A stretch of DNA of 64,000 bases, taken from assembly GCA_009729775.1 (NCBI GenBank), contig GCA_009729775.1_4081.1. One strand, given 5' to 3'. The translations under genes and the position numbers were made by a program. Position 1 is the first letter of the stretch; every line of letters starts with the position of its first letter. The DNA is from Escherichia coli. GTDB taxonomy: Bacteria > Pseudomonadota > Gammaproteobacteria > Enterobacterales > Enterobacteriaceae. Of this stretch, positions 10,537-43,351 are shown piece by piece. The notes under the pieces were generated by a model. It saw nothing but the letters and a program-made list of their open reading frames with translations. It searched no databases and had not been told where the DNA came from.

Positions 10537-10837
10537 CTATTTCACATGGATAACAATTCATAATTTTGTTCAATAGAATCTGGTATTTTTTAATAACTTC
10601 TATATCAATTTTTATATTACTATTAAAAACTAATGATTCTTGAAATAATTCCCCCTCGTCAAGTGAAGTAAAATCATTTATCTTCAAGGGTATATTGTTG
10701 CATCGCAAGGAGAATGTATTTTCATCACGAATTAAAGTATAGAAATCATTATGTTTTTTATTATAATCAAATTTAACAAGTAGTAGTTTAATATGAGTAG
10801 CGTACATTACTTTAACTAATTCAGATTCACGTCGCAT
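10496..10837 (-). CDS. family A paralog
   Basis: core EGELFQESLV; start approximate. Confidence 0.65.
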   Translation of the reverse strand: MRRESELVKVMYATHIKLLLVKFDYNKKHNDFYTLIRDENTFSLRCNNIPLKINDFTSLDEGELFQESLVFNSNIKIDIEVIKKYQILLNKIMNCYPCEIGGHMQFKSKMYEL

Positions 10838-11259
10838 ACCATACCTCTCTTATGATGCAAACATTCTTGCATAATGTGTTGTATTTTTCGTAACAGAAAC
10901 ACATCCAGTTCATTAAAAACAGTACTGTACTGGAACATCTCTTCTTCCCCGTACTCAGTTAAATCATCAATTTCATCTCTAGAAACAGCTACAATATTAA
11001 AACCACGTGTACTACAATAACCCTTAGTAAGATAATATATGTACTTGTACTCTCCGTTGATATCTAAGAGATCTTGTGTGATACAGAAGCTTTTGGGTGA
11101 CAGTTTATCATCAGGAACCATATGCCTTGCTTGTACATAGCAACGGATACCATCACCTATACTATATGTAATAACTTCAAATTCAATCTTCATAGGTGAA
11201 TATAATCCTTTTATATTGCTCAGGTGCAGTACTGAAACGTTTGATTGGATAATTATCAA
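10816..11259 (-). CDS. family A paralog
   Basis: core EEEMFQYSTV. Confidence 0.65.
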   Translation of the reverse strand: MIIIQSNVSVLHLSNIKGLYSPMKIEFEVITYSIGDGIRCYVQARHMVPDDKLSPKSFCITQDLLDINGEYKYIYYLTKGYCSTRGFNIVAVSRDEIDDLTEYGEEEMFQYSTVFNELDVFLLRKIQHIMQECLHHKRGMVCDVNLN

Positions 11260-11545
11260 AGATTCTTTTCATTTCTTTCTGGATTAAACATAAGAAATCA
11301 AAGTTACAATCGTACTTATTATCCCATACTAAACTTTCTTGGAATAACTCATCCTCTTGCATTAGTGTAGTGTCAATTACATCTTCACGGACATAGCTAT
11401 ATACTTCATAGCTCTTGAAGCCATCTTCTGATAATTCTAATTCATATGCAGCCATATCAAACATATCATCATGGTTTGTCTTCAAAGATATTAAACAAGT
11501 AACTAATTTTTTAGTTGTATAGTATGTAATACTTAATGTGTTCAT
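11183..11545 (-). CDS. family A paralog
   Basis: core EDELFQESLV. Confidence 0.7.
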   Translation of the reverse strand: MNTLSITYYTTKKLVTCLISLKTNHDDMFDMAAYELELSEDGFKSYEVYSYVREDVIDTTLMQEDELFQESLVWDNKYDCNFDFLCLIQKEMKRIFDNYPIKRFSTAPEQYKRIIFTYED

Positions 11546-11550
11546 TTGTT

Positions 11551-12153
11551 TTATACCTCAGTATATAGCTTACAATAGCTTTCATCGAAATTACAAACAC
11601 TTCTCAAGTACTGACACAGGTCATTGAAAATATTTACATTTGATATATATACATTATCAAATTCTGTTCGTTGAAAGAATGTATGCATAGAATTTGTAAT
11701 ATATCGCATTGCATCTTCACGTCCCATAGTTATATCATTTGTGAACATTGCATCTTCATCAGTACTGATGTGTTCTATTTTAAATGATTTCATAAATGGA
11801 ATACTCTTTCCTAGGGCATAACCATCACCATATGATGCTTCTACTGCACCTTTAGAATAAAGGAATTGATATAAGTCCGAATCACGATTATAAAAAGTAC
11901 GACATACGGAGGAACATAATTTATTATCTATATGAAATAAAAATCTTTTAGCATTTTTGTCTAATACTATTCGCAATGCATCACTCTCTAGAAATATATC
12001 ACCATCAAGCATAAATGAGAACTGTACTAATGCTTTTTCTAAATCCGCTCGTTTGTGATAAATCATTTCCTGCATATATATAATATCATTTGCTAATTTC
12101 TTAAAAAACAAATGCACATCTGCACTACAACATTTATTTGCATTTATTGACAT
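11551..12153 (-). CDS. hypothetical protein
   Basis: 200 aa ORF. Confidence 0.55.
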   Translation of the reverse strand: MSINANKCCSADVHLFFKKLANDIIYMQEMIYHKRADLEKALVQFSFMLDGDIFLESDALRIVLDKNAKRFLFHIDNKLCSSVCRTFYNRDSDLYQFLYSKGAVEASYGDGYALGKSIPFMKSFKIEHISTDEDAMFTNDITMGREDAMRYITNSMHTFFQRTEFDNVYISNVNIFNDLCQYLRSVCNFDESYCKLYTEV

Positions 12154-16486: not shown

Positions 16487-16978
16487 TCAACCCCTGTTAA
16501 TACCGTTATCTACAGTTTTCTTTACGTATTTGTAATCGAAATAGAAGTTCCCAGAACCAATACTTTTAAAGTACCACATAATTATAATAACATCAAGTAC
16601 TTCATTATCATATACAGTACTTTGTTGGAAGTAATACTCTTCACTATCCCACGGACCTTCCAGTACTTCACTCGGAATTATAATGTCATTGGAATCGCTG
16701 TCAGTACTGTTGATGGTATCTGTATCATTAATATAGACCATGTACTCATTATGCATATTAATGAAGCATTCATAATCATTAGGGTCGGTATCTAGTATGC
16801 ACGTTTCTGTATCCAGTACGCACGTTTCTGTATCTGAGCAGTCATTATAAAGGAGGTTATCCGGTACATAATATTGAGTACTTGTGTCTTTGAAAACACC
16901 GTAAACTGAACCTTCTTTTGCCATATTCATGTACTCATGAATCTTCTTTGCTTTTTCCAATGAACTCTGTAATGTCAT
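16487..16978 (-). CDS. family A paralog, MSLQSAL subfamily
   Basis: N-term MTLQSSLEKAK; core EEYYFQQSTV. Confidence 0.75.
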   Translation of the reverse strand: MTLQSSLEKAKKIHEYMNMAKEGSVYGVFKDTSTQYYVPDNLLYNDCSDTETCVLDTETCILDTDPNDYECFINMHNEYMVYINDTDTINSTDSDSNDIIIPSEVLEGPWDSEEYYFQQSTVYDNEVLDVIIIMWYFKSIGSGNFYFDYKYVKKTVDNGINRG

Positions 16979-16987
16979 TTTATAATC

Positions 16988-17347
16988 TCATATATTGAAA
17001 TAATAATTATTCGTTCTTGATGGGGATGGATTAAATACGTTTTCTTTTTCAAATCTCTTCATTTCATTTTGCAAAGAAACCATTTCTTCAAATGTACAGG
17101 AGTACTTATTCTTATCAAACACTAATGCAGCCTGAAATAGTTCACCATCGTCCAGTACTGTATAATCTATAAGACTCTCAGATTCATAGTCATAGTCGTC
17201 ATGTGATACATGAATAAATTTAAAACAAGAATCTTTGTAATGCATATATAAACTCAACTCATGTTCCGAGTCGCCCTTAATAAGATTACAGCACAAGTCC
17301 CATCCTTTAGGTAACTTATAATAGTACATAGAATAATCATATGTCAT
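16988..17347 (-). CDS. family A paralog
   Basis: core DGELFQAALVFDKNKY. Confidence 0.7.
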   Translation of the reverse strand: MTYDYSMYYYKLPKGWDLCCNLIKGDSEHELSLYMHYKDSCFKFIHVSHDDYDYESESLIDYTVLDDGELFQAALVFDKNKYSCTFEEMVSLQNEMKRFEKENVFNPSPSRTNNYYFNI

Positions 17348-17700
17348 TCTTGAATTCCTAAATTGAATTTGTATTCTTGATTAATACTTGCATTGGGTTT
17401 ATGCAAAGCAGCATACTCTTTCATTTCATTTTGTATTGCAATAACTTCTTCAAATGTACACAAGTACTTCTTATCAAATACTAATGATTCTTGGAATAGT
17501 TCTGCGGTATCCATTAATGTATAGTCCGGCATATCTTGGTGTGGATACTGTAATGAACTGTAATCAATGAATGTAAATTTACCCTGAGTGTAATGAATAT
17601 ACTCATTTGCACTGTGCATTAAATCACCTTTGTTTAAATTACAAAAGTACTGATAACTGTGCTTGAAAGTATGTACTGATATTAAAAAATCAAATTCCAT
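17344..17700 (-). CDS. family A paralog
   Basis: core TAELFQESLVFDKKY. Confidence 0.7.
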   Translation of the reverse strand: MEFDFLISVHTFKHSYQYFCNLNKGDLMHSANEYIHYTQGKFTFIDYSSLQYPHQDMPDYTLMDTAELFQESLVFDKKYLCTFEEVIAIQNEMKEYAALHKPNASINQEYKFNLGIQE

Positions 17701-18071
17701 CAGTACTCAACCTCTACATAAATAGATTCAGGAAACTTAGTCATATAATCTTCTGGATAGTTCTGCATTACTTTGATCATTTCTGCCTGTGTAGCACGGA
17801 CGTATTCAATTGGTGCTCCTGGTAAATTCCAGACAGTACTTTCCTGAAAGAATTCCTCTTCTGACAGTACTGTCAGATTTACAAAATCATTACGGTAATT
17901 TTTTGAATCATCATATGTGAAGATTTTAAAAGACCCATTTTCATATAGTACAAGAACAAAATGGGAGAATTTTTGTAATGCACCACCAAGGCTTTCCACG
18001 ACCGCATGATTCAGTGTACAGATGACCTCTTTTTTCCTCATACCGAATTGAATTCTAATTTCTTTTTTCAT
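17700..18071 (-). CDS. family A paralog
   Basis: core EEEFFQESTV. Confidence 0.7.
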   Translation of the reverse strand: MKKEIRIQFGMRKKEVICTLNHAVVESLGGALQKFSHFVLVLYENGSFKIFTYDDSKNYRNDFVNLTVLSEEEFFQESTVWNLPGAPIEYVRATQAEMIKVMQNYPEDYMTKFPESIYVEVEY

Positions 18072-18129
18072 AAAATCTCCTTCAGATTAGTACTGAATTT
18101 GTACAGAATATTAGAACTGTATACAGCCT

Positions 18130-18228
18130 CTGTATCTGTATCCATAATCAAATCACCTTTGTTTAAATTACAAAAGTACTGATAACTGTGCTTAAAAGAA
18201 TGTACTGATATTAAAAAATCAAATTCCA
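18130..18228 (-). pseudogene. truncated duplicate of the 5' end of gene 17344..17700
   Basis: about 85 bp near-identical to 17620-17700 (N-terminal codons MEFDFLISVH...) followed by unrelated sequence and early stop. Confidence 0.5.
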
Positions 18229-18606
18229 TCACTCTTCCCCTAGATTGAAATGATTACAAAAATCATCTTCACCAGTACTGCACCAGATGTCTATACATTC
18301 TCTGTGAATACATTTAATTCTACGCTGTAATTCAATCATCTCTTCTAATGTACAGATGTACTTCTTATCAAATACTAATGCCGCCTGAAACAGTGCAGCA
18401 TCATCAAGTACTGTATAGTCCAACATCTCGGTTGCTTTACCCCTAAACCCAGTACTAAAATCCATCAAATAAAAGTCAGCATTCCAGTACTTTAAAATCT
18501 TGTCCCTAGCGTAGTTTAAATCACCCTTGTATAAGTTAGAGTGCGTAACTAACTCACCAGTGTACATCCATGTCCTTGCACAAAATTCATTATATTTTAT
18601 TTCCAT
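18229..18606 (-). CDS. family A paralog
   Basis: core DAALFQAALVFDKKY; start moved to internal Met (MEIKYNEF); track N-terminal extension runs through an intergenic region. Confidence 0.6.
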   Translation of the reverse strand: MEIKYNEFCARTWMYTGELVTHSNLYKGDLNYARDKILKYWNADFYLMDFSTGFRGKATEMLDYTVLDDAALFQAALVFDKKYICTLEEMIELQRRIKCIHRECIDIWCSTGEDDFCNHFNLGEE

Positions 18607-18801
18607 CTTAATCTCTACTATAATTAATAAGGTAAACTCCAATATAAGGAGAACGTTCGGCGGCGGGGTATTTTTTGTTTCAAGAAACATGAACTGTACT
18701 CTGAAAAACACAATATAAAACTTTATATTAAACATATACCTTAGCATGTTTTTCAGCGGAAATTTTTTTGACCCCCTGCGGCCTGTCAAAATGAAACGTC
18801 T

Positions 18802-19026
18802 CTATTTATTCAGCATAGAAAGCTTGATTTCTTCAATCCTTTTCATTGCACAAAGCCTTCGACTCGTCCTCTCGTATATATTCAATACTCGCTGTAATGC
18901 ATTATCTGTATTATCTGGAACTGCAATCTGAACCAAATATGTATCCTTCAAAATAGAATCCATCATGAATTCAAAACCTTTCACACTAAAGCAATATGCC
19001 ACTTCCGGCTCTTCAAACGTAATCAT
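18802..19026 (-). CDS. hypothetical protein
   Basis: 74 aa ORF. Confidence 0.45.
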   Translation of the reverse strand: MITFEEPEVAYCFSVKGFEFMMDSILKDTYLVQIAVPDNTDNALQRVLNIYERTSRRLCAMKRIEEIKLSMLNK

Positions 19027-19243
19027 AATTCCAATCCCCTATTCCCTCTAACCTTCTAAGATATCTTGCGTAAATTATTTCGAAATATCTGTGCAACGAA
19101 ATTACGGATTGCTCATAATCATCATTCCTGTACATTGTGCATGTCAGAAAATCATTTAACCCAAAATCTAAACTGCACTTGAACTTCTCCTTTGCAATAT
19201 CACTATTACTTGCACTTTTCATAATAAACCCTTTGTACCGCAT
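19013..19243 (-). CDS. hypothetical protein
   Basis: 76 aa ORF. Confidence 0.45.
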   Translation of the reverse strand: MRYKGFIMKSASNSDIAKEKFKCSLDFGLNDFLTCTMYRNDDYEQSVISLHRYFEIIYARYLRRLEGIGDWNYDYV

Positions 19244-26108: not shown

Positions 26109-26409
26109 TGATTCTCCCTGACATACCTTGTATTAGCTTATCATACATATCGAGCATCACTTTTTGAATATTAATTAGTACTGGCATCGTGCAAATATCA
26201 ATGTCGTATACTAAGCTGTACTGGAATAATTCATCTTCCTGCATTTGTACTAAATTAGGTAAAGGATAATTGTCTGCCTCTTCATCCTGATACTTGAAAT
26301 GCATAACACCATCCTTTTTGTACAAAAGAATGTCAATATCACCTAACTCTTCTGCATAACCAAAAATACATATACTCGATGTTTTTGCTATATTAAATTT
26401 CATATACAT
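26083..26409 (-). CDS. family A paralog
   Basis: core EDELFQYSLV. Confidence 0.7.
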   Translation of the reverse strand: MYMKFNIAKTSSICIFGYAEELGDIDILLYKKDGVMHFKYQDEEADNYPLPNLVQMQEDELFQYSLVYDIDICTMPVLINIQKVMLDMYDKLIQGMSGRIIEIDIQDN

Positions 26410-26411
26410 CC

Positions 26412-26753
26412 TTATACATAAATTTGATAGACATTTTGAACAAAATACTTTGGAAGACTACTATATGATATCATCTGCCTTTGTACTTCCTTCATCTCTT
26501 CCAATGTCAATCCCAAAGAATCATCGTGTACTATCATGTACTGAAACTCGTCTTCTTCAGAGATATCAAATAAATTCGGTACTGCAATTATATCAATACC
26601 TACCATCCAAAAAAAAGAATTATTACTTTTTCTGTACTCAAAAAAATTCAAAGAAGAACCACTCTGTAAATCAGATACCATAATGGAACATTCATCGTTA
26701 CGTACAATACAATTGAATTTACGCATTATCTCCACCTCTCTCCGTCTGTACAA
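26412..26753 (-). CDS. family A paralog
   Basis: core EEDEFQYMIV. Confidence 0.65.
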   Translation of the reverse strand: MYRRREVEIMRKFNCIVRNDECSIMVSDLQSGSSLNFFEYRKSNNSFFWMVGIDIIAVPNLFDISEEDEFQYMIVHDDSLGLTLEEMKEVQRQMISYSSLPKYFVQNVYQIYV

Positions 26754-29036: not shown

Positions 29037-29244
29037 AATCTCTTTTTGCTTTCCTCGCCAAAAGGTACATATACGATTCTTCGTATTGTGCTTGATAGTT
29101 TGTGTTTAAGAGTCGAAACAACTTCTGTTCTGCTAGAACGAGTTGCTTATCTTCATAACAACGATAGCGTATCAACTTTTTGTATTCGATGTTGATTACA
29201 TCCATTACTATAAGCCCATGTTCATCATCTGTCAAGTGTTTCAT
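29014..29244 (-). CDS. family B paralog
   Basis: motif RLLNTNYQAQY. Confidence 0.65.
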   Translation of the reverse strand: MKHLTDDEHGLIVMDVINIEYKKLIRYRCYEDKQLVLAEQKLFRLLNTNYQAQYEESYMYLLARKAKRDYENFKRR

Positions 29245-29470
29245 GTATCTTTTCCTTAATAGTGATTTTAAGAGATTTAATTATACGTTCAACGTGATAC
29301 TCCTGTCTATCAGTTCCAAGAAGGTATGGTAGTGCTTGGAATAGAGCTTCCGCATTCTTTTCCTCTGGGGTTTGGTTTGGATCATTAGGAAGTTGATTGG
29401 CATATCTCTTGGCACTAACTAATCTCTCGACGTATTCATTATATGTTAAGTATATCATTTCATTTTGCAT
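29225..29470 (-). CDS. family B paralog
   Basis: motif YLLGTDRQEYHV; near-identical to next gene. Confidence 0.7.
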   Translation of the reverse strand: MQNEMIYLTYNEYVERLVSAKRYANQLPNDPNQTPEEKNAEALFQALPYLLGTDRQEYHVERIIKSLKITIKEKIHETLDR

Positions 29471-29696
29471 TTACTTTTTCCTTAATAGTAATTTTAAGAT
29501 ATTTAATTATACGTTCAATGTGATACTCTTGCCTATCAGTTCCAAGAAGGTATGGTAATCTTTGGAATAAAACTTCTGCACTCCTTTCTGCTGGGGTTTG
29601 GTTTGTGTTGTGAGGAAGTTTATTTGTAAGTCTTTTGGATTTATCTAGTCTTTCTGTTAACTCATCATGTGTTAAGTATATCATTTCCTTTTGCAT
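29460..29696 (-). CDS. family B paralog
   Basis: motif YLLGTDRQEYHI; near-identical to previous gene. Confidence 0.7.
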   Translation of the reverse strand: MQKEMIYLTHDELTERLDKSKRLTNKLPHNTNQTPAERSAEVLFQRLPYLLGTDRQEYHIERIIKYLKITIKEKVNAK

Positions 29697-33517: not shown

Positions 33518-33919
33518 TTATAGTCCTAAGATAGTGCGTGCTTCGTTACGTTCCGTCCATAGCTGCATGATGTGAGCAAGTAAGTCCTTACTAATGTATC
33601 CGGTGTTCATAGCTTCACGGATAGATACATCATAAGCACCGAACCCCGTGCGAACGATACGCACATCATTTAGGTTAGTGTTATAGATACCGCCAAGATC
33701 AACGGCTTCGAATACTGCATCAACTGAATACTCATTGTTACCATCGTTGAAGTTTTCTAGTGCAATAGTATTGGATACCGCCCAACGTTTGCAGTTTCCA
33801 ATGATGCGGCATTGTTCCGGTTGGAGAGTGCCATTACTTACAGCGTACTCCAGTGCATCTTTACCAAAAGTCCGAGCCAGTACTAAAACGTCAGCGAAGG
33901 AAGTGATTGAGAAGGTCAT
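33518..33919 (-). CDS. hypothetical protein
   Basis: start at MTFSITSF with GGAG RBS; track MVLP extension is translation of 5' hairpin. Confidence 0.6.
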   Translation of the reverse strand: MTFSITSFADVLVLARTFGKDALEYAVSNGTLQPEQCRIIGNCKRWAVSNTIALENFNDGNNEYSVDAVFEAVDLGGIYNTNLNDVRIVRTGFGAYDVSIREAMNTGYISKDLLAHIMQLWTERNEARTILGL

Positions 33920-33939
33920 GATAAAACTCCTTAATTTAG

Positions 33940-34010
33940 GAGGGAGAACCATTTCCCCCTCTCTATGTAAAACATTATACTTGATTCTAAGTACTATGCA
34001 AGTACTTTTT
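33940..34010 (-). promoter_or_regulatory. early promoter cassette: TTGCAT-16-TATAAT followed by GC-rich 5' hairpin
   Basis: reverse complement reads TTGCAT..TATAAT then GGGGGAAATGGTTCTCCC stem-loop then RBS. Confidence 0.55.
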
Positions 34011-34335
34011 ACATTTTAATACCTGGATTCAGGTAGCGGTGAGATCCGTATTCTGGATCTGTTTCGGTCCAGTACTGTAAATCTATAGTACCCTTTGCGT
34101 TAATCTTGTCTACTAGCTTATTCATCTTAGTGTAGACTACTTCGCTAGGGATGTAGTGTAATCCTTTATTATAGAAGTAGTGGTTAGCTTCACTATCGTT
34201 TAAGATATAGCGTGCACCGTTTGCGGTTTGTGCAACAATGAAAGAGTATTCTACTTCCCGATCATTACCATCAACAGTAATGCGGTCGAAATTGGTACGG
34301 ATGAAAGCTTTAACGATAGCGATTGAAGTACTCAT
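34009..34335 (-). CDS. hypothetical protein
   Basis: 108 aa ORF. Confidence 0.55.
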   Translation of the reverse strand: MSTSIAIVKAFIRTNFDRITVDGNDREVEYSFIVAQTANGARYILNDSEANHYFYNKGLHYIPSEVVYTKMNKLVDKINAKGTIDLQYWTETDPEYGSHRYLNPGIKM

Positions 34336-34469
34336 GGTGAATCTCCTAACTTTGTGGGCCGTCGCACCATTGCCGCCCTACGAGATACATTATTGCAGTA
34401 CTGATATACTTTGTCAATACTTTTTTTGAAATAGTTTTGAGTACTGGAATTACATCCACCAGCAGATAG

Positions 34470-34590
34470 TTACTCACCGTTATGAACTATCTTACAGATA
34501 CTTCTCTGCACCCTGTGGGCTAGTTTTTGTCTATGCGTATATAATAGCAAAGGGACTGACCGGAGTCAATCCCTTTTTTTATTCTTTTTT
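34470..34590. repeat. repeated intergenic composite element (GCACCCTGTGGGCTAG core and AAGGGACTGACCGGAGTCAATCCCTTTTTT hairpin)
   Basis: near-identical copies at about 36390-36510, 39760-39870, 43790-43920. Confidence 0.6.
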
Positions 34591-34591
34591 G

Positions 34592-34792
34592 TTAGATGAT
34601 TCTCCAATCTTCTACCAGGATTTTAATATACCGTACCAGTGATTCGAGTGATTCCACTTCCCGATAATCGGTAGCCGTTTGCACGGAACAAGTACAGCCG
34701 ATCAAGCCATTGCCAAGCTCTTTGATCTGTACATCGATGCAGTTGGCTTTTGCTTCATTCAGTACTGCAACCAATTCGTTAGCGATTGACAT
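34592..34792 (-). CDS. hypothetical protein
   Basis: 66 aa ORF with upstream promoter cassette. Confidence 0.5.
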   Translation of the reverse strand: MSIANELVAVLNEAKANCIDVQIKELGNGLIGCTCSVQTATDYREVESLESLVRYIKILVEDWRII

Positions 34793-34810
34793 AATGTTTT
34801 ACTCCTAAAG

Positions 34811-34875
34811 GTGCGGGAGAACTATTCCCCCGCTCTATGTAAAACATTATACATTATCTTGTAGTACTGTCAAAT
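34811..34875 (-). promoter_or_regulatory. early promoter cassette (TTGACA-16-TATAAT) and 5' hairpin
   Basis: reverse complement of intergenic region. Confidence 0.55.
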
Positions 34876-34880
34876 AGTTT

Positions 34881-35138
34881 TTATGAGATATCTTCGATAT
34901 AGTCGGCCCATGTCATTTGTTCAGTACTATCGAGTGCACCAGGATTATTTGGATCAAACCATTCGCCATCCCCTAAGTACATTGCAGCGGATACCGCTTT
35001 ATAGCCATTATAGGCGTTATTCCACTGCATAGCACGATAGATATGGCCTTTAATTGGTGTTAGTACTGGTAACGTTTTATGGTCTTCTACGTAGGCTGTA
35101 GCGATTGGATTTACCCGATACGTTTTGAACTGTTCCAT
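34881..35138 (-). CDS. hypothetical protein
   Basis: 85 aa ORF. Confidence 0.5.
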   Translation of the reverse strand: MEQFKTYRVNPIATAYVEDHKTLPVLTPIKGHIYRAMQWNNAYNGYKAVSAAMYLGDGEWFDPNNPGALDSTEQMTWADYIEDIS

Positions 35139-35212
35139 GATGTTTCCCCTTTAGTTAGTAAAGTTAATACAACAGTACTATCACGCATTGTCAATAGTAC
35201 TGAAATAAAACT

Positions 35213-35437
35213 TTAGATTAGATTATTGATGCCGTTGATGGTAGACTCGCTTTCTTCTTTCTCCCATTGGCGGTAATACTTCCATGCTTCATGATAGGTG
35301 GCGATCAGTTCATCTTTTTGATCCTGAGTACATGCCAGTACTGAATCACTGTAAGCGGTGTTATAGATAGAATCAAATGATTTCTTCTCTTCTGCCAGGG
35401 TAGCTACTTCCCGCATCAGTTCATCAAAGTTAGCCAT
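35213..35437 (-). CDS. hypothetical protein
   Basis: start at MANFDELM; track extension covers 5' hairpin. Confidence 0.55.
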   Translation of the reverse strand: MANFDELMREVATLAEEKKSFDSIYNTAYSDSVLACTQDQKDELIATYHEAWKYYRQWEKEESESTINGINNLI

Positions 35438-35454
35438 TTTAGTACTCCTTATTA

Positions 35455-35520
35455 GTGGGGGAGGATATCTCCCCCTATGCAAAACATTATACTTTGTTTT
35501 ACTTACAATGCAAGTACTTT
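35455..35520 (-). promoter_or_regulatory. early promoter cassette (TTGCAT-16-TATAAT) and hairpin GGGGGAG-atat-CCTCCCCC
   Basis: reverse complement of intergenic region. Confidence 0.55.
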
Positions 35521-35712
35521 TTAAATTTTATTTCCGATATAGTCCGGCCTGTTCTTTTCGGTCATACGCTTAAGCATTTTTTGCATATGGCTTATTGCTT
35601 GTAGTGTATCCTCTTCCAGCGATGAATCAAGATAATCAGGATCATTCTTCACCTTACAATGATTATGATAGCGTAGTACTGCCAGTACTTTTTTAACTTC
35701 TTCAACTGTCAT
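35521..35712 (-). CDS. hypothetical protein
   Basis: 63 aa ORF. Confidence 0.45.
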   Translation of the reverse strand: MTVEEVKKVLAVLRYHNHCKVKNDPDYLDSSLEEDTLQAISHMQKMLKRMTEKNRPDYIGNKI

Positions 35713-35981
35713 AATAAGTATTCCACTTCGTTTGCTTTCAGGTTAGTATCAATCATCAGTGGCTTTTTGTAGTCCACAAAACGATTAGTTTTTTCGATAG
35801 CGAAGCCCATATAATCCAGCTTGCTTACCGTGCATTCATTCTTAAAAACTTCTTTCGCTGCATTGATGGCTGATTGCAATGTTAACCGACCATCTAAGTT
35901 AATGTTTCCAAATGATCCACCAGCAGAAGTAGGATTACCGTTCATATCTTTAATGATCATAGTTGCGGAGTAGCTAGACAT
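35709..35981 (-). CDS. hypothetical protein
   Basis: 90 aa ORF. Confidence 0.55.
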   Translation of the reverse strand: MSSYSATMIIKDMNGNPTSAGGSFGNINLDGRLTLQSAINAAKEVFKNECTVSKLDYMGFAIEKTNRFVDYKKPLMIDTNLKANEVEYLL

Positions 35982-36002
35982 AATTTTGTTTCCTTTTAGT
36001 AT

Positions 36003-36062
36003 CGGGGAGAACTATTCTCCCCTTGATGTAAACTATTATACAGTACTGATATACTTTGTCAA
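36003..36062 (-). promoter_or_regulatory. early promoter cassette (TTGACA-16-TATAAT) and hairpin GGGGAGAA-tagt-TCTCCCC
   Basis: reverse complement of intergenic region. Confidence 0.55.
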
Positions 36063-36065
36063 TAC

Positions 36066-36287
36066 TTAATTACGTTTAAAATGATATGTACCTTTATCAT
36101 CCTGTACGCCCCATACTGATTTACCATCAACGCCAGTGAAGCCGGATTGCAATTCAATATGGAAACCATTATTATCAACTACAAAAACTTTTTTATTTTC
36201 ATCCCGATAACATTGATATTCTGAATCAACATTAAAGGCCGCATCATTCAGAAGATTGGAAGCGTAAATGCAAGTCATTGTAGTCAT
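36066..36287 (-). CDS. hypothetical protein
   Basis: start at MTTMTCIY; track MVLP extension is hairpin. Confidence 0.55.
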   Translation of the reverse strand: MTTMTCIYASNLLNDAAFNVDSEYQCYRDENKKVFVVDNNGFHIELQSGFTGVDGKSVWGVQDDKGTYHFKRN

Positions 36288-36389
36288 GATTTTATTCCTT
36301 ATTCTTTGAGGGAGAACCATTTCCCCCTCTCGATATAAAACATTATACTTGATTCTAAGTACAATGCAAGTACTTTTTTAAAAATAGTT

Positions 36390-36510
36390 TTCAGTACTGA
36401 ATACTTATATAATAGATACACTTCCGCACCCTATGGGTCAGTGAGTTATCTCTCAATGAATATATAATAGCAAAGGGACTGACTGGAGTCAATCCCTTTT
36501 TTAATCTTTT
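36390..36510. repeat. repeated intergenic composite element, copy 2
   Basis: as above. Confidence 0.6.
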
Positions 36511-37095
36511 TTATCGTGTTATAGTTATCGCGTTAACATCACGTTTTTTATAGTACTGATTCCAGATATTGCGGGTTAAACCGTAATCAAGTACTTTAAT
36601 CAAGCCGTTGCGATCCTGGCCGATATTCTGTTTTCTGATATCTCTTATCGTTAGTGTGGATAATGTATCATCAACGTGATTGAGAGCATCAGCGAAATGG
36701 TGATGGCGTTCAATAGTGTTACGTTTAATATTGTACTTTAACTCATTACATGCGGTTACGTGCTTTACACTGCCTTTGCTTGCAGTACTCAAACGATCCA
36801 TAACAATAAACAGATTATCAGGATCGCATAAATGCATATGCACCTTGGCAAAGAACTGTTTAAGGTGCGGACGGTCATAATCTAAAAAATTCCATACCTT
36901 ACATTCAGTTTCATTTTGTTCTACACCCGCATCACAATTCGCGACCTTAATCACTAACCGATCATTTAAAGCGAATACAATACGGGAAGAACCCGCACCG
37001 ACGATCTCCAGTCCAGCTAACCGACAAGCTGAAAGGATCTCTTTGTTGGTTTCCATTGCATGAAGTGAACGGATGAATTTAGTATAGTTACGCAT
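36511..37095 (-). CDS. putative protein kinase-like protein
   Basis: Gly-rich loop GAGSSRIV, VIKV lysine, IRDIRKQN (HRD-like), DYG (DFG-like); start at MRNYTKF with GGAG RBS. Confidence 0.45.
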   Translation of the reverse strand: MRNYTKFIRSLHAMETNKEILSACRLAGLEIVGAGSSRIVFALNDRLVIKVANCDAGVEQNETECKVWNFLDYDRPHLKQFFAKVHMHLCDPDNLFIVMDRLSTASKGSVKHVTACNELKYNIKRNTIERHHHFADALNHVDDTLSTLTIRDIRKQNIGQDRNGLIKVLDYGLTRNIWNQYYKKRDVNAITITR

Positions 37096-37126
37096 TGTGT
37101 TGACTCCTTGAGTTAATGAAACTATA

Positions 37127-37369
37127 TTACAGTACTTTACTATCAATGGCAACTACTTTTTTTACTTGAACTGCGTGGAATACTTCACGCGTATTTTTAG
37201 TACTGAATACTTTTGCCGTACCTTGTTCGACCGCAATACGATAGCGACCGTTAACGTCCACCATGTTGATAAAGTCCGGTGTACTGAATGGAGTTACCCG
37301 GCATTTAAGAACGGTTAACAGTTCCACCAGCGTGGTAGTCTCTTTGATACGTTTTTCTAAAGTAATCAT
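37127..37369 (-). CDS. hypothetical protein
   Basis: start at MITLEKRIKE downstream of TTGACA-17-TACTAT. Confidence 0.5.
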   Translation of the reverse strand: MITLEKRIKETTTLVELLTVLKCRVTPFSTPDFINMVDVNGRYRIAVEQGTAKVFSTKNTREVFHAVQVKKVVAIDSKVL

Positions 37370-37426
37370 TTTGTTTTCCCCGTGTTGGTATGCATTCATA
37401 GTACTAAAACATTTGAGTACTGTCAA

Positions 37427-37645
37427 TTAGATAATAGAATATTTCTTTAGTGATAATGCGTCTTCTGTCGGTTGATATTCTACACCGTTCCCGTTATCAA
37501 CCTTAGTGAGTAAACCTTTATCAATGAGTTTTTTGATGGTACGGTTTCCCTGTTGAAAACTAGTGAAGTGTGAATCATTACGAAAGGTATAACCGTGCTT
37601 CACTGCTTCATCAATAGTTTTCTTTTCGATTTTAGATAATTTCAT
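37427..37645 (-). CDS. hypothetical protein
   Basis: 72 aa ORF. Confidence 0.5.
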   Translation of the reverse strand: MKLSKIEKKTIDEAVKHGYTFRNDSHFTSFQQGNRTIKKLIDKGLLTKVDNGNGVEYQPTEDALSLKKYSII

Positions 37646-37703
37646 TTTGTTTCTCTCTCTCTGTGTTGGTATAGATACATAATACTAAAACATTTGAGTA
37701 CTG

Positions 37704-37958
37704 TCAACGTGATATTAGTTTTATTTTTTTATTGTATTGTTGGTGTTCATATAGATTAATTTTTCCAGTACTCTCGATCACTATTCTATTGTTAGTGTCT
37801 ACATCGATAACACGTAGTTTCCCGTTGCTTAACTTCCTAGGCAATAGACTACCATTAATAAACTCATTAGCAAGCTGTACGGCCTTTGTGATGATTCTCT
37901 GTGGTGCTTTATAGTGTACCCGCAAGATATTATCTTTAGATAGTTGTACCTTCATCAT
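37704..37958 (-). CDS. hypothetical protein
   Basis: 84 aa basic ORF. Confidence 0.5.
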   Translation of the reverse strand: MMKVQLSKDNILRVHYKAPQRIITKAVQLANEFINGSLLPRKLSNGKLRVIDVDTNNRIVIESTGKINLYEHQQYNKKIKLISR

Positions 37959-37973
37959 TTTAGTTTATCCTAT

Positions 37974-37998
37974 AAAAAAGGCGGGAACTGAACCCGCC
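37974..37998 (-). terminator. rho-independent terminator
   Basis: GGCGGG-aactgaa-CCCGCC hairpin followed by U-tract on minus strand, after stop of 38022..38426. Confidence 0.55.
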
Positions 37999-38021
37999 GT
38001 GTTGTTAGTACTGCAAAGTTA

Positions 38022-38417
38022 TTAGATAACCTGGCGGCGTTTACTGTATACTGTTACACGGTTTCCTTTACGGTCATGACGGATCTCTTTCTGGTTACGA
38101 ATCAGTTCACTTGGACGCTTAAGGTTTGCCAGGTGATCCGCGTGAGTCCATGCATTACTATTCACTTGTACTTGAATATCAGAACCTTCCAAGAAGTCAT
38201 CTTGAGCGTTCAGTACTTCAGCCAGTTCTTGAGCTTTCTTCAGTTCTGCTTCAGTAAGTACTGGTTCAGGTGAATTCACAATATCAGAGATCTCTTTGAA
38301 CTGTACCGCCCAGCGTTGTCCTTTCGGTGCATCTTTGCCCATGTCTTTAAATGTTTCACCTTCTTCACGGGCAACGATGCGAGCTTGTTCACGGGTAGCG
38401 AAGAATTTAGTAATCAT
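38022..38417 (-). CDS. hypothetical protein, paralog of 50213..50479
   Basis: shared FATREQARIVAREEGETFKDMG and HDRKGNRVTVYS segments. Confidence 0.6.
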   Translation of the reverse strand: MITKFFATREQARIVAREEGETFKDMGKDAPKGQRWAVQFKEISDIVNSPEPVLTEAELKKAQELAEVLNAQDDFLEGSDIQVQVNSNAWTHADHLANLKRPSELIRNQKEIRHDRKGNRVTVYSKRRQVI

Positions 38418-38516
38418 GGTGTACATCCTATTAGTTAAGTTAATTAGTACTACAAGTTAGAGTCTATTATAAAGTACTATCTGGGTAATGTCAAATAGTA
38501 CTTTAAATGGATTCTA

Positions 38517-38840
38517 TTACATGTCTTTCTTACGTTTTACATCGTAGTAACGAACTGTAATTTCTTTGTTGATCTCTTCCTCAATTCTGTGTAGTACTTT
38601 CTCTTTCGGGTTGAAACCTATTACAGTTTCTTTAATGATCTCCAAGCCCGTGTATTCGCCTTGTGTACCGTAACCGTAAGTAAAGGTTTCATGTCCCAGG
38701 TCTTCCCAGCGGTCACCAATCAATGCAGACACGTAGCATGAGTGGTAAGTATTGCCGTGGCTATCAGTCCACCGATTAACTTTAATGTCAAAGGAAGTTA
38801 CAATTTTCATTTCTACTTTCTGGGTAAGGATCATAGCCAT
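38517..38840 (-). CDS. hypothetical protein, paralog of 45141..45485
   Basis: shared GNTY, YGYG and C-terminal VKRKKD motifs. Confidence 0.6.
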   Translation of the reverse strand: MAMILTQKVEMKIVTSFDIKVNRWTDSHGNTYHSCYVSALIGDRWEDLGHETFTYGYGTQGEYTGLEIIKETVIGFNPKEKVLHRIEEEINKEITVRYYDVKRKKDM

Positions 38841-38861
38841 TTTAATTTCTCTCTTTTAGTT

Positions 38862-38927
38862 AGGAGGGGAACCATTCCCCTGCCTTGATGTAAACTATTA
38901 TACAGTACTAAGATACTTTGTCAATAC
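38862..38927 (-). promoter_or_regulatory. early promoter cassette (TTGACA..TATAAT) and 5' hairpin
   Basis: reverse complement of intergenic region. Confidence 0.5.
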
Positions 38928-39129
38928 TTATTTGTTTTCTTTTCGTAATTTCTTTTCAGCTTCAACTACATTCTTATTTGTGCAAACTACTTCATCGGAT
39001 AAATCTAACTTCCATCCAGACAGGGGTTTGGTTTGTTTCTTTGCTGCTTTGTTCGCTTTCATGATGTTTCCTTTTTAATTAAGATGTAAACTATTATACA
39101 GTACTAAGATACTTTGTCAATCTATTTTA

Positions 39130-39330
39130 TTAGATAGTTTCCCATTTCATGTTACCCGCTTTACGCTGTGAAACAGGAATAAACATGTTATTAATGTTAC
39201 TAATATAACCGACCTGTAAGTCACGCTGTGAACCATATGCCCGACTTGCTGCATTTTTAGCACCGCGTTCTGATTTATAAACGCCGCTGGATACTGTAAA
39301 GCCTACTACACCGAAAGTAAAATGTTTCAT
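39130..39330 (-). CDS. hypothetical protein
   Basis: 66 aa ORF; two tandem promoters upstream. Confidence 0.5.
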   Translation of the reverse strand: MKHFTFGVVGFTVSSGVYKSERGAKNAASRAYGSQRDLQVGYISNINNMFIPVSQRKAGNMKWETI

Positions 39331-39524
39331 TTTGTATTCCTCTTTGTGGTTGATGTAAGTATTATACTCGTTTACTTTCTATTGTCAATCTTTTTTATCA
39401 GGGGAGTTTTTCGTATGTCTTACTCCTGGACTACTTAACGGGGTTACTTGTTTCGTTCCCCGTCCTGATGTAAAACATTATACTTGATTCTAAGTACAAT
39501 GCAAGTACTTTTTAAAAATAGTTT

Positions 39525-39689
39525 TCACTTACTCATATTAACAGGCTTAAACGGTGGCAATGTAAGATCATGCGGGGTTAAACTGTCATGCTTTGCCCAC
39601 ATACCAGAATCCCTACGGAATAATACCTTATTGTTTTTTATACGATAAAAGTTACCATTATCAGTGTTTTTATACCATACCATTTTCAT
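39525..39689 (-). CDS. hypothetical small protein (not in ORF track, below 60 aa)
   Basis: 54 aa ORF MKMVWYKNTDNG... with TTGCAA-16-TATAAT and GGAG RBS upstream. Confidence 0.4.
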   Translation of the reverse strand: MKMVWYKNTDNGNFYRIKNNKVLFRRDSGMWAKHDSLTPHDLTLPPFKPVNMSK

Positions 39690-39759
39690 TTACTCCTGGT
39701 TATGTCGTTATTAAACATTATACGGGGTTATAGATAGTTTGCAATTAGTTTTTCAGTAC

Positions 39760-39870
39760 TAGCCACCAGCATATAATAGATACATTTATGCACCCTGTGG
39801 GCTGATTTGTTTCTATGCGTATATAATAGCAAAGGGACTGACCGGAGTCAATCCCTTTTTTAATTCTTTT
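39760..39870. repeat. repeated intergenic composite element, copy 3
   Basis: as above. Confidence 0.6.
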
Positions 39871-40019
39871 TAAACTTGTTTTGGGTTGCGATATGTGATA
39901 GCGTTCGGGTACATTTGTTTAATGTTATTCCATGCCTGGTTAACATTGTAACCACTTGAGCGAATCAGTTGGTTACTACCGACACCTTGAAACACTACTT
40001 CGAATAAGAATTCTTTCAT
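39870..40019 (-). CDS. hypothetical small protein (below track cutoff)
   Basis: about 49 aa ORF MKEFLFEVVFQG...; ATGA overlap with upstream ORF. Confidence 0.3.
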   Translation of the reverse strand: MKEFLFEVVFQGVGSNQLIRSSGYNVNQAWNNIKQMYPNAITYRNPKQV

Positions 40020-40189
40020 GCTTTCACCTCGCGATCTGCTTTACCTTTACGCCACGCTGTTGCTAATTGTTCGCGTTGCCATAAGTCGAGTGATACGTAA
40101 AGTTTTGCATTATCACCCTTCGGATACTCGCCAGTAGTACCAATCCGATAAAACAGATCTTTCAGTACTGATAATTCCACCTGGATCAT
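40016..40189 (-). CDS. hypothetical small protein (below track cutoff)
   Basis: about 57 aa ORF MIQVELSVLKDL... Confidence 0.3.
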   Translation of the reverse strand: MIQVELSVLKDLFYRIGTTGEYPKGDNAKLYVSLDLWQREQLATAWRKGKADREVKA

Positions 40190-40297
40190 TGTATTACTCC
40201 TGATTGTGTTAGTACTTCTACGATGGCATGAATGATCATAAGTACAGCTAACACAACAATCATCGGATTCATTTGCATAAGCTGTACTCCTTATATA

Positions 40298-40510
40298 TTA
40301 ATCTTTCAGCCAATGATCTTGAATGAATTTTTCACAGAATCCCTGTTTCATAGATTCTAACAGGCGTTCACGGTGAGCGGCGGCATATTGCTCAGTACTA
40401 TGCGTTACGCCAGGTTGATAACGTGAAACACCGTCTGGTCCGATATATTGAACATCCCACGGTTTTTCGTTAGTATCAGACCATTTACGAACGATTAGTT
40501 GACCTTGCAT
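40298..40510 (-). CDS. hypothetical protein
   Basis: 70 aa ORF with promoter cassette and AGAGGA RBS. Confidence 0.55.
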   Translation of the reverse strand: MQGQLIVRKWSDTNEKPWDVQYIGPDGVSRYQPGVTHSTEQYAAAHRERLLESMKQGFCEKFIQDHWLKD

Positions 40511-40527
40511 GTTTCTTTCCTCTTAGT

Positions 40528-40587
40528 GGGGAGAATCATTTCTCCCCTTCATGTAACTTATTATACAGTACTAGATTACATTGTCAA
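40528..40587 (-). promoter_or_regulatory. early promoter cassette (TTGACA-16-TATAAT) and hairpin GGGGAGAA-tcat-TTCTCCCC
   Basis: -35 at 40582-40587, -10 at 40560-40565, hairpin 40528-40547 (coordinates on plus strand). Confidence 0.6.
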
Positions 40588-40593
40588 TAGTTT

Positions 40594-40917
40594 TTATTCA
40601 CCTTGTTTGAATATAGTTTTCTCCATTGATTCCATGATTGCAACCAATACAGCATGGATCTCACTTAACGCGGCATCACTAAAAGCATTAATGAATAGGC
40701 AATCATTCTCGCGAATATTTTTAATGTACTTATCAGCAGTGGTTGCGAATTCATTCAACGGCAGATCAAATGCTTTATCCCATAATGGATGGCGTAACTG
40801 TAACAGTACTGGATTATCACGGTCACCAGGTGAGAAAGTGCCTGTAATGAAACATACACCAGGGATACTTTCGAATTGACAACGAACTTCTTTTGTGATA
40901 GTAGTATGAATATACAT
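40594..40917 (-). CDS. hypothetical protein
   Basis: 107 aa ORF. Confidence 0.55.
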   Translation of the reverse strand: MYIHTTITKEVRCQFESIPGVCFITGTFSPGDRDNPVLLQLRHPLWDKAFDLPLNEFATTADKYIKNIRENDCLFINAFSDAALSEIHAVLVAIMESMEKTIFKQGE

Positions 40918-40944
40918 TTATTTTTATCCTCTATTAAATTAATA

Positions 40945-41133
40945 TTACAGTTTATGAATCAATTCTTTATCCAAGCGATAGCGAACATTATTGATTGTAA
41001 CTGCATTGTTTTTAATGCTACGCTGTACAGGTCCACCAGCAATAACAAACGTTGCCTTATTGCCCCGAACGATGATAGCACTTCCAGGATTACCGAAATC
41101 ATCTTGTACTAAAATGCTTGATAAGTTTTGCAT
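40945..41133 (-). CDS. hypothetical protein
   Basis: 62 aa ORF. Confidence 0.45.
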   Translation of the reverse strand: MQNLSSILVQDDFGNPGSAIIVRGNKATFVIAGGPVQRSIKNNAVTINNVRYRLDKELIHKL

Positions 41134-41149
41134 TTGTCTTTCCTTGTAG

Positions 41150-41208
41150 TGGGGAGAACTATTCTCCCCTTCATGTAAACAATTATACAGTACTGAAAAC
41201 TAATTGCA
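41150..41208 (-). promoter_or_regulatory. early promoter cassette (TTGCAA..TATAAT) and hairpin
   Basis: reverse complement of intergenic region. Confidence 0.5.
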
Positions 41209-41212
41209 AGTA

Positions 41213-41569: not shown

Positions 41570-41632
41570 GATTTCAATCCTCAGTTAAGATATAAAATAT
41601 TATACACTAACTAACAGTACTGTCAATACTTT

Positions 41633-42200: not shown

Positions 42201-42221
42201 CTTGATGATATTGTCAATAGT

Positions 42222-43338: not shown

Positions 43339-43351
43339 CTATTTTTTAATA

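What the first reader, a model, noticed from the sequence alone, without database searches (positions are those of the whole stretch)
18072..18228. Duplicated 5' gene fragment marks a recombination scar
About 85 bp at 18140-18228 are nearly identical to 17620-17700, the start codon region and first 25 codons of gene 17344..17700, but are followed by unrelated sequence and an early stop. This is a remnant of a paralog deletion or unequal crossover.
Basis: seen in the sequence. Interest (0 to 1): 0.45.

Follow-up and report, generated by a model that had tools for sequence, protein, structure and literature searches.

The report
Scar of an ectopic gene insertion
The duplicated 85-base gene start is real: it marks where a jumbo coliphage acquired one extra small gene, plus the tail of that gene's former neighbour, from a related phage by recombination at very short sequence matches. 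It is a well-documented but ordinary example of how phage genomes are patched together.

Summary
The window is an Asteriusvirus jumbo coliphage, 99.6% identical to phage G17, with the genes on the minus strand. The repeat is confirmed: 17618-17702 and 18147-18231 are 85 nt, 82/85 identical, 529 nt apart, with 0 such matches expected by chance. It runs from the TGATG stop/start overlap through codon 27 of the gp368-type gene.

The "unrelated sequence" after copy B is not unrelated. It is the 3' end of a different gene, full-length (192-198 aa) in phage A4 and two metagenome contigs, where it sits directly upstream of the 123-aa gene gp367. So ORF 18068-18229 is a chimera: gp368 codons 1-27 fused to the last codons of an A4_364-type gene. 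It ends at that gene's own stop, which overlaps the gp367 ATG.

The two junctions lie in microhomologies: GATTT (18150-18154) and TGATGGA (17696-17702). Twenty-two relatives have the empty site (gp365 directly followed by gp368), and 11 carry the insertion. The window keeps its own diverged 364/367 pair at 11183-12153, so the cassette is a foreign allele inserted ectopically.

In phage Turkey3 both exchange points lie inside the 85-nt repeats, so the repeats now serve as recombination arms. This is ordinary phage mosaicism that happens to be well resolved.

The parts
18147..18231 (-). Copy B of the 85-nt direct repeat: stop of the gp365-type gene, overlapping ATG, and codons 1-27 of a gp368-type gene. 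It forms the 5' part of the chimeric ORF.
   Evidence: allele 'b' in the table
17618..17702 (-). Copy A of the 85-nt direct repeat: stop of gp367, overlapping ATG, and codons 1-27 of the intact gp368-type gene.
   Evidence: allele 'a'
18068..18229 (-). Chimeric 53-aa ORF (MEFDFLISVHSFKHSYQYFCNLNKGDL | IMDTDTEAVYSSNILYKFSTNLKEIL). It corresponds to G17_00559 and to 121Q gp366, which is 74 aa.
   Evidence: The N-terminal part matches phrog_15629 (E 1.2e-9). The tail is homologous to the C-terminus of A4_364.
18150..18154 (-). Junction J1: 5-nt microhomology GATTT (codons GAT TTx, Asp-Leu, same frame in both parents), where gp368 codon 27 is joined to the 3' part of the A4_364-type gene.
   Evidence: alignment: gp368 ...AAAGGTGATTT|AATGCAC; A4_364 ...CAACAGGATTT|GATTATGGAT; chimera ...AAAGGTGATTTGATTATGGAT. 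The BLAST match to A4 starts at 18154.
18068..18149 (-). Remnant of the 3' end of an A4_364-type gene (26 codons plus stop), co-transferred with gp367.
   Evidence: A4_364 is homologous over its full length, including this tail, to the window's own 200-aa protein.
18110..18113 (-). Site of a secondary 63-nt in-frame deletion (relative to 121Q, L026, L027 and A4), between the imperfect direct repeats TAATGTTCTGTGCAA and TAATATTCTGTACAA.
   Evidence: (repeat spacing 589 in 121Q against 529 here)
17700..18071 (-). gp367-type cassette gene, 123 aa, phrog_13866, function unknown. Its own Shine-Dalgarno AAGGAG lies 6-7 nt upstream of the ATG.
   Evidence: It is 93.5% aa and 94.8% nt identical to A4_365. 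Predicted fold has pLDDT 78 with no significant PDB match.
17696..17702 (-). Junction J2: 7-nt microhomology TGATGGA at the stop/start overlap, where the donor sequence (367 stop, then the start of the next A4 gene) is joined to the start of gp368.
   Evidence: A4 GAGTAC TGATGGA tttag; window copy A GAGTAC TGATGGA atttg; recipient type GAAGAG TGATGGA atttg
17344..17700 (-). Intact gp368-type gene (118 aa, phrog_15629), the target of the insertion.
18229..18606 (-). gp365-type gene (125 aa, phrog_15629). In short-form relatives its stop overlaps the ATG of gp368 directly.
11183..12153 (-). The window's own, strongly diverged version of the 364-367 pair at the syntenic native site: 200-aa ORF 11551-12153 and 120-aa ORF 11183-11545.
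   Evidence: synteny with A4_359-361 and A4_366-371; 24% id, E 7e-9, full length; 27% id, E 5e-12; the 120-aa protein is phrog_13866; conserved in 33 records

Best explanation
The duplicated gene start is a by-product of an ectopic insertion. The recipient was an Asteriusvirus in which gp365 was directly followed by gp368, the arrangement still seen in PBECO4, E9.1 and about 20 others. It acquired roughly 510 nt from a phage of the A4 lineage: the last 47 codons of the A4_364-type gene plus the whole following gene, gp367.

The left joint formed at a 5-nt microhomology (GATTT) between codon 26-27 of gp368 and the 364-type gene. The right joint formed at a 7-nt microhomology (TGATGGA) between the gp367 stop/next-gene start and the gp368 start. 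The right joint lies 85 nt upstream of the left joint in the recipient, so those 85 nt are present twice.

The staggered joints fit two replication template switches (copy choice) during mixed infection. That step is inferred. Break-and-join, or two successive crossovers, would give the same product.

GATTT is in the same reading frame in both genes, so the fusion is in frame. It yields a chimeric ORF that ends at the donor gene's own stop, overlapping the gp367 ATG. That ORF was 74 aa, as in 121Q. A later 63-nt slippage deletion between imperfect 15-nt repeats shortened it to the 53 aa seen here.

Since then the two 85-nt copies have acted as homology arms, letting the cassette be exchanged between genomes, and probably lost from them, by homologous recombination. 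The chimeric ORF is most likely a translated but functionless by-product. gp367 has its own ribosome-binding site.
For: Shown:
(1) The repeat is real and non-random.
(2) The tail of the chimera is homologous to the C-terminus of full-length A4_364, which directly precedes gp367 in A4, L024 and L025 with the same ATGA overlap.
(3) Both joints sit in microhomologies that can be read in the alignments.
(4) A4 resembles the window at 93-95% only across the cassette (18154-17693). The flanks cannot be aligned at the DNA level.
(5) At the protein level A4_364-365 is syntenic with window 11183-12153, where the window has its own 24-27%-identical pair. The cassette is therefore ectopic and of foreign-allele origin.
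(6) The empty site is seen in 22 genomes and the insertion in 11.
(7) The 74-aa form occurs with a distinct 'd' allele of copy B in 121Q, L026 and L027, while CRJP21 has 'd' plus the 63-nt deletion. This gives an order of events.
(8) Turkey3 carries a cassette with 0/444 differences from the window, in flanks that are 91% and 74% identical. Its switch points lie at positions 48-85 of copy B and 48-82 of copy A.

Logic: copy B is immediately preceded by the gp365 stop, so a gp365-gp368 adjacency must have existed before the insertion.
Against: No sequenced genome carries only one of the two joints, so one event cannot be told apart from two. The exact donor has not been found: A4, L024 and L025 differ from the chimera in the first 9 tail codons (IMDVDSAAT against IMDTDTEVV), and a metagenome scan for the exact variant gave only chance hits. 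For any individual short-form genome, ancestral absence cannot be told apart from secondary deletion between the repeats. Long and short forms are intermixed in both flank trees. dN/dS is uninformative about whether the chimeric ORF is under selection.
Confidence: 0.8

Rival explanations
1. One reading: an extra full-length paralog of gene 17344..17700 once stood here, and most of it was deleted or decayed, leaving its first 25-27 codons followed by junk.
For: The locus is a tandem array of gp368-type paralogs (gp365, gp368, gp369; phrog_15629). The N-terminal part of the small ORF matches that family.
Against: The tail is not junk and not gp368-like. It aligns with the C-terminus of A4_364, a different family that has a full-length homolog at the window's native site. 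Identity drops from 96% to nothing at one point that coincides with a microhomology. None of about 36 relatives or the metagenome contigs has an intact paralog at this position.
Confidence: 0.04
2. Two-step origin. First, a genome arose in which a full-length 364-type gene and gp367 lay directly upstream of gp368 (joint J2 only). Later, a single illegitimate crossover at GATTT with a gp365-gp368 genome created J1 and brought two orthologous gp368 starts into one genome.
For: It needs only one illegitimate crossover per step. The two 85-nt copies carry different alleles in every long-form genome, as expected if they came from two parents. Single-gene indels at gene starts are recurrent in this array.
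Against: No genome or contig with J2 but without J1 was found in the phage collection, IMG/VR or the protein-context look-ups. The allele differences between the copies can equally be explained by later exchange with other phages, as shown for Turkey3.
Confidence: 0.3
3. Reverse polarity. The long form is ancestral at this locus and all short forms are deletion derivatives (recombination between the 85-nt copies). A4 acquired gp367 from here.
For: Direct repeats of 85 nt are good substrates for deletion. E9.1 (short) has flanks 99.0% and 99.8% identical to the window, so gain or loss was recent. Long and short forms are intermixed in the flank trees.
Against: Copy B is a gp368 start fused to a 364 tail, so it cannot predate a gp365-gp368 adjacency. 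A4_364 aligns over its whole length, tail included, with the native 200-aa protein of the window, and the 364-367 order is syntenic in both, so the A4 arrangement is the source. E9.1's single copy is not a simple B/A recombinant of G17's copies, because it has an extra variant at position 41. Some individual short forms may still be revertants.
Confidence: 0.1
4. The chimeric 53-aa ORF is a new functional gene kept by selection, for example as a micro-protein or as a translational-coupling leader for gp367.
For: The ORF is intact in all 11 long-form genomes and in two metagenome contigs. The secondary 63-nt deletion kept the frame. Its stop overlaps the gp367 ATG, and it inherits the gp368 start context.
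Against: All copies descend from one recent event with very few substitutions, so intactness says little. A multiple-of-3 deletion has a 1/3 chance expectation. dN/dS for the tail is 0.35-0.5 on 12-18 changes, which is not distinguishable from gp367 or from neutrality. The deletion removed 21 of the 47 tail codons. gp367 has its own AAGGAG ribosome-binding site. 27 residues of gp368 correspond to only the first two predicted strands of the family fold.
Confidence: 0.12

Closest known systems
Novel joints from illegitimate recombination in mosaic phage genomes (Hendrix-Hatfull model of phage mosaicism; own knowledge)
   Same: Abrupt switch from high similarity to none. The joints lie at a few bases of microhomology. 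A single gene is present between two genes that are adjacent in relatives. A remnant of a neighbouring gene was carried along.
   Different: One joint lies inside a coding sequence and survived as an in-frame chimera. An 85-nt duplication of the target was created. Both parental arrangements, the product and a derived state are all available as sequenced genomes.
Microhomology-mediated template switching (copy-choice; FoSTeS/MMBIR-type events; own knowledge)
   Same: Two joints, each at 5-7 nt of microhomology, with the return switch upstream of the departure point, which duplicates the interval between them.
   Different: The mechanism is inferred from the product only. Nothing here distinguishes replication switching from break-and-join.
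PeSL (promoter-early stem-loop) cassettes that mediate modular gene shuffling in T4-type phages (Arbiol et al. 2010; own knowledge)
   Same: Short direct repeats flanking a small gene serve as homology for gain, loss and exchange between co-infecting relatives. In Turkey3 the exchange points map inside the repeats.
   Different: The repeats here are coding 5' ends created by the insertion itself. They are not pre-existing regulatory elements, and there is no promoter or hairpin signal at the boundaries. Promoter-plus-hairpin repeats do exist elsewhere in the window (33.9-52.5 kb) but not at this locus.
Morons of lambdoid phages (own knowledge)
   Same: One extra gene is inserted between two genes that are adjacent in related genomes.
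   Different: There is no promoter or terminator of its own. It lies inside a tightly packed, co-oriented array of paralogs.
Transposable-element target-site duplication
   Same: A direct duplication of target sequence flanks the inserted DNA.
   Different: The duplication is 85 nt rather than 2-14 nt. There are no terminal inverted repeats. The cassette encodes no transposase, integrase or homing endonuclease.

Membership tests
Illegitimate-recombination joint (phage mosaic boundary) | Abrupt transition between sequence shared with one parent and sequence shared with another | tested here: met
   identity to gp368 ends at 18150 and identity to A4 starts at 18154
Illegitimate-recombination joint (phage mosaic boundary) | Short microhomology at the joint | tested here: met
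   GATTT at J1; TGATGGA at J2
Illegitimate-recombination joint (phage mosaic boundary) | Both parental arrangements exist independently | tested here: met
   Empty site in PBECO4, E9.1 and others; donor arrangement in A4, L024, L025
Decayed paralog (pseudogene remnant of a gp368-type gene) | Residual similarity to the parent family beyond the conserved fragment, or an intact copy at the same position in relatives | tested here: not met
   The tail aligns to the A4_364 family, not phrog_15629. No intact copy in any relative.
Tandem duplication by unequal crossover within one genome | The duplicated unit is derived from the genome's own adjacent sequence | tested here: not met
   The 444 nt between the copies are 93-95% identical to A4 and have only a 27%-identical (protein) counterpart in the window itself. 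Only the 85 nt are duplicated.
Transposon / IS / homing-endonuclease insertion | Element-encoded transposase, integrase or endonuclease | tested here: not met
   gp367 and the chimera have no Pfam hit; PHROG families are of unknown function; there is no nuclease-like fold match
Transposon / IS / homing-endonuclease insertion | Terminal inverted repeats and a short target-site duplication of fixed length | tested here: not met
   No inverted repeats at the boundaries. The duplication is 85 nt.
PeSL-type regulatory cassette (T4-type phages) | Early promoter plus stem-loop at the cassette boundaries | tested here: not met
   Promoter-like and terminator-like sites are not above the shuffled expectation in 16900-19100, and none lies at the boundaries
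PeSL-type regulatory cassette (T4-type phages) | Flanking repeats used as recombination substrates between related phages | tested here: met
   In Turkey3 both switch points lie within the 85-nt copies. This is one case only.
phrog_15629 (gp365/368/369 family, unknown function) | Significant profile match | tested here: met
   gp368 E 2.9e-56. The chimera matches profile positions 1-39 only, E 1.2e-9.
phrog_13866 (gp367 family, unknown function) | Significant profile match | tested here: met
   gp367 E 2e-41; window 11183-11545 E 1.3e-49

The most novel reading that the evidence does not exclude
The 85-nt duplicated gene start is more than a passive scar. It works as a pair of portable homology arms that make the gp367 cassette freely insertable into, and excisable from, any co-infecting Asteriusvirus that has a gp368 start. 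Insertion at or just inside gene starts would then be the general way in which the ~37-member EExxFQxS paralog array gains and loses members. That would make the array a recombination-driven diversity locus, possibly a host-takeover or counter-defence arsenal.
Probability: 0.25. Interest if true: 0.45.

Novelty: new member of a known kind. Interest (0 to 1): 0.3.

Why it matters
The finding gives a complete natural history of one gene acquisition in a jumbo phage: donor arrangement, empty site, primary product, secondary deletion, and later spread through the duplicated arms. It shows at base resolution how a large array of small paralogs of unknown function turns over.

It is useful as a worked example and for annotation. 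G17_00559 and 121Q gp366 are fusion remnants and not members of an independent gene family, and the presence or absence of gp367 is not a lineage marker.

It does not reveal a new mechanism or a new kind of element.

Tried and rejected
(1) Pfam on nine proteins of the locus gave nothing significant. PHROGs gave only families of unknown function.

(3) dN/dS of the chimera tail against gp367 rested on too few changes to separate constraint from neutrality.

(4) IMG/VR scan with gp367 returned only 121Q itself and one distant paralog.

(5) tblastn with A4_364 found the full-length gene only in A4 among 50,697 phage records.

(6) A metagenome scan for the chimera's exact tail variant returned two unrelated chance matches, so the true donor was not found.

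(7) The promoter/terminator scan of 16900-19100 showed no enrichment and nothing at the boundaries, so moron-type and PeSL-type cassettes were rejected.

(8) Flank phylogenies were built to polarise gain against loss, but long and short forms are intermixed, so polarity for individual genomes could not be settled.

(9) The papers on fEgEco12, Sharanji, CBB and the jumbo-phage overview do not describe this locus or the paralog array.

(10) I considered whether the divergent 'd' patch in copy B of 121Q and CRJP21 came from another paralog. It is more simply another natural allele of gp368 codons 11-16, because UE-S1 and JNE01 show further variants of the same segment.

Full report
**Identity of the window and the observation**

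The region matches Asteriusvirus jumbo coliphages; the closest is vB_EcoM_G17 at 99.6% over 2 kb. All genes in this part of the window are on the minus strand. The repeat is real. Positions 17618-17702 and 18147-18231 are 85 nt long, 82/85 identical, and 529 nt apart. A search allowing 3 mismatches finds only these two sites, and none in 100 shuffles.

Read on the coding strand, each copy starts exactly at a TGATG stop/start overlap and covers the first 27 codons of a gp368-type gene. I use 121Q gene numbers for orientation throughout.
- Copy A begins the intact 118-aa gene 17344..17700.
- Copy B begins a 53-aa ORF (ATG at 18229). Its stop (18068-18070) overlaps the ATG of the 123-aa gene 17700..18071 (gp367) as ATGA.

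**What relatives show**

Among related phage genomes there are two forms.
- Eleven genomes carry the same two-copy structure: G17, phAPEC6, SHEFM2K, Sharanji, BF17, CRJP21, ECO103 4-12-1, EC22.5-2, slurp01, Turkey3 and 121Q.
- Twenty-two genomes have one copy of the 85 nt, with gp365 followed directly by gp368. Examples are PBECO4, E9.1, SP27, UB, the Salmonella SD phages, WPEC3, fEgEco12 and ph0011. They lack the 529 nt.

No genome has an intact extra gp368-type paralog at this position.

**Origin of the "unrelated" sequence**

Phage A4 carries a 93.5%-identical gp367 (A4_365). There it is preceded by a full-length 192-aa gene, A4_364, whose stop overlaps the gp367 ATG in the same ATGA arrangement. 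The last 47 residues of A4_364 are LIMDVDSAATYSSNVLCKEFQNSKILELLYIADCNILYKFCTHLKEIL. They align with the non-repeat part of 121Q gp366: IMDTDTEVVYSSNVLCKEFQNSKMLELLCIADCNILYKFSTNLKEIL.

Two Logan contigs show the same native arrangement of a 198-aa gene, gp367 and a 112-aa gene. One of them corresponds to a 357-kb NCBI record labelled E. coli.

The small ORF is therefore a chimera: codons 1-27 of gp368 fused to the 3' end of a 364-type gene. In the window and in most long-form genomes the tail has additionally lost 63 nt in frame. That loss lies between the imperfect repeats TAATGTTCTGTGCAA and TAATATTCTGTACAA, at site 18110-18113.

**The joints**

- J1: gp368 reads ...AAAGGTGATTT|AATGCAC, A4_364 reads ...CAACAGGATTT|GATTATGGAT, and the chimera reads ...AAAGGTGATTTGATTATGGAT. 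The crossover is within GATTT (18150-18154). This is GAT TTx (Asp-Leu) in the same frame in both genes, which explains why the fusion is in frame.
- J2: A4 reads GAGTAC TGATGGA tttag, the window reads GAGTAC TGATGGA atttg, and the recipient type reads GAAGAG TGATGGA atttg. The switch is within TGATGGA (17696-17702).

In the recipient, J2 lies 85 nt upstream of J1, and that offset is what duplicates the 85 nt.

**The cassette is ectopic and foreign**

A4 and the window align at the DNA level only over 18154-17693 (82% and 94.8%). The flanks do not align. Over the whole cassette the identity is 93.3%.

At the protein level A4 and the window are syntenic. A4_359-361 correspond to window 13592-12706, and A4_366-371 to window 10822-8203. 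The A4_364-365 pair falls where the window has its own 200-aa and 120-aa genes, 11551-12153 and 11183-11545. These are full-length but very diverged homologs, 24% (E 7e-9) and 27% (E 5e-12). They are conserved in 33 other records.

Three conclusions follow.
- The native place of the 364-367 pair is about 6.5 kb further down the array.
- The tail belongs natively to the 364 family.
- The copy at 17700-18149 is a second allele of A4-lineage origin inserted ectopically. It is not an intragenomic duplicate.

Because copy B is immediately preceded by the gp365 stop, a gp365-gp368 adjacency (the short form) must have existed before the insertion.

**Order of later events**

The 85-nt segment exists in several alleles, which I call a, b, c and d.
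- 121Q and the metagenome contigs L026 and L027 have the undeleted 74-aa chimera with a divergent d-type copy B.
- CRJP21 has the d allele plus the 63-nt deletion.
- The window, G17, slurp01, BF17 and SHEFM2K have the deletion with a b-type copy B. Turkey3 has it with a c-type copy B.

The variable patch (gp368 codons 11-16) also varies in the single-copy genes of UE-S1 and JNE01. The d patch is therefore most simply another gp368 allele.

**The repeats as recombination arms**

Turkey3's 444-nt cassette has 0 differences from the window, while its flanks are 91.2% (upstream 900 nt) and 73.7% (downstream 900 nt) identical. Turkey3 follows its EC.P1/fEgEco12-like background up to position 48 of copy B. 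It is identical to the window from there through the cassette to position 81 of copy A. It follows fEgEco12 again from position 82 at the latest. Both exchange points therefore lie inside the 85-nt copies.

Conversely, E9.1 lacks the cassette in flanks that are 99.0% and 99.8% identical to the window. Long and short forms are intermixed in both flank trees. Presence or absence is thus uncoupled from the background. For an individual short-form genome, ancestral absence and secondary loss cannot be told apart.

These phages encode their own recombinase, according to the Sharanji paper (PMC11895373).

**Function**

gp367 is frameshifted in two metagenome contigs, which suggests it is dispensable. 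It has its own AAGGAG ribosome-binding site.

Whether the chimeric ORF is under selection cannot be decided: dN/dS is 0.35-0.5 on 12-18 changes. I regard it as a by-product.

**Context**

The locus lies in an array of about 37 co-oriented paralogs (window 68-27727) that share an EExxFQxS core motif. Of 57 gene junctions there, 19 are ATGA or T(A/G)ATG overlaps.

Comparison of the whole array with E9.1, 121Q and fEgEco12 reveals two more single-gene indels, at window 26404-26727 and 10825-11179. They are bounded by 2-nt and 7-nt overlaps at gene starts. In the second, the inserted gene has taken over the first four codons of the recipient gene. The 85-nt case is therefore the most conspicuous instance of a recurrent process.

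**Verdict**

It is wrong on origin: it is not a deleted paralog, and the flanking sequence is not unrelated.

This is ordinary phage mosaicism by microhomology-mediated illegitimate recombination, followed by homologous exchange. It is unusually well documented because the donor arrangement, the empty site, the product and a derived state are all sequenced. The papers I searched on these phages do not describe it.

Noticed in passing
window 68-27727, minus strand: About 37 tandem, co-oriented ORFs of 104-215 aa share a conserved core motif, (S/T)xx(E/D)Exx(F/Y/L)FQxS(T/L)(V/I/L), which none of the 19 plus-strand ORFs carries. It is one very large paralog array covering several PHROGs of unknown function (9317, 15629, 13866 and others). 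The papers I searched on these phages do not describe it.
   Followed up: partly
whole window: GTAC is the most over-represented tetranucleotide: 629 observed, 202 expected from base composition, 392 from a second-order Markov model. AGTACT occurs 253 times against about 22 expected (12-fold), while GGTACC and CGTACG occur 0 times. GATC is under-represented (0.54). The excess is spread evenly, at 7.6-12 GTAC per kb.
   Followed up: no
window 33900-52600: At least 17 copies of a 60-95-nt intergenic element (families D1-D3, D5, D6, D9, D12). On the coding (minus) strand it reads: a -35-like TTGCAA/TTGACA, 17 nt, a -10-like TATAAT, a G/C-rich hairpin, then AAGGAG and ATG. These are promoter-plus-5'-hairpin modules reminiscent of T4-type PeSL elements.
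   Followed up: no
window 10825-11179 and 26404-26727: Two further single-gene insertions relative to E9.1 and 121Q or fEgEco12, bounded by 7-nt (CTGAATT-like) and 2-nt overlaps at gene starts. At 10825-11179 the inserted 125-aa paralog took over the first four codons of the recipient gene, and the recipient gene acquired a new start (MRRESELVKV against MKTELVKV).
   Followed up: partly
L027 2501-2875 and L028 68-442 (ENA metagenome contigs): gp367 is frameshifted at its FFQES motif (97-aa product) in contigs from two different samples, which suggests the cassette gene is dispensable. Assembly error is not excluded.
   Followed up: partly
L022 1427-2155 (phage UE-S1): gp365 and gp368 are annotated as a single 242-aa ORF. 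One extra base before the TGATG overlap puts the stop out of frame and fuses the two genes. This could be real or a sequencing error.
   Followed up: no
L023 (phage JNE01) 1323-2589: In this more divergent Asteriusvirus the gp368-type gene is flanked by gp370/371-type genes, with no gp365 or gp369. The order of paralogs in the array is therefore not conserved across the genus.
   Followed up: no
window 29239-29690: A tandem duplication of a 226-nt unit, two copies at 80% identity (family D11).
   Followed up: no
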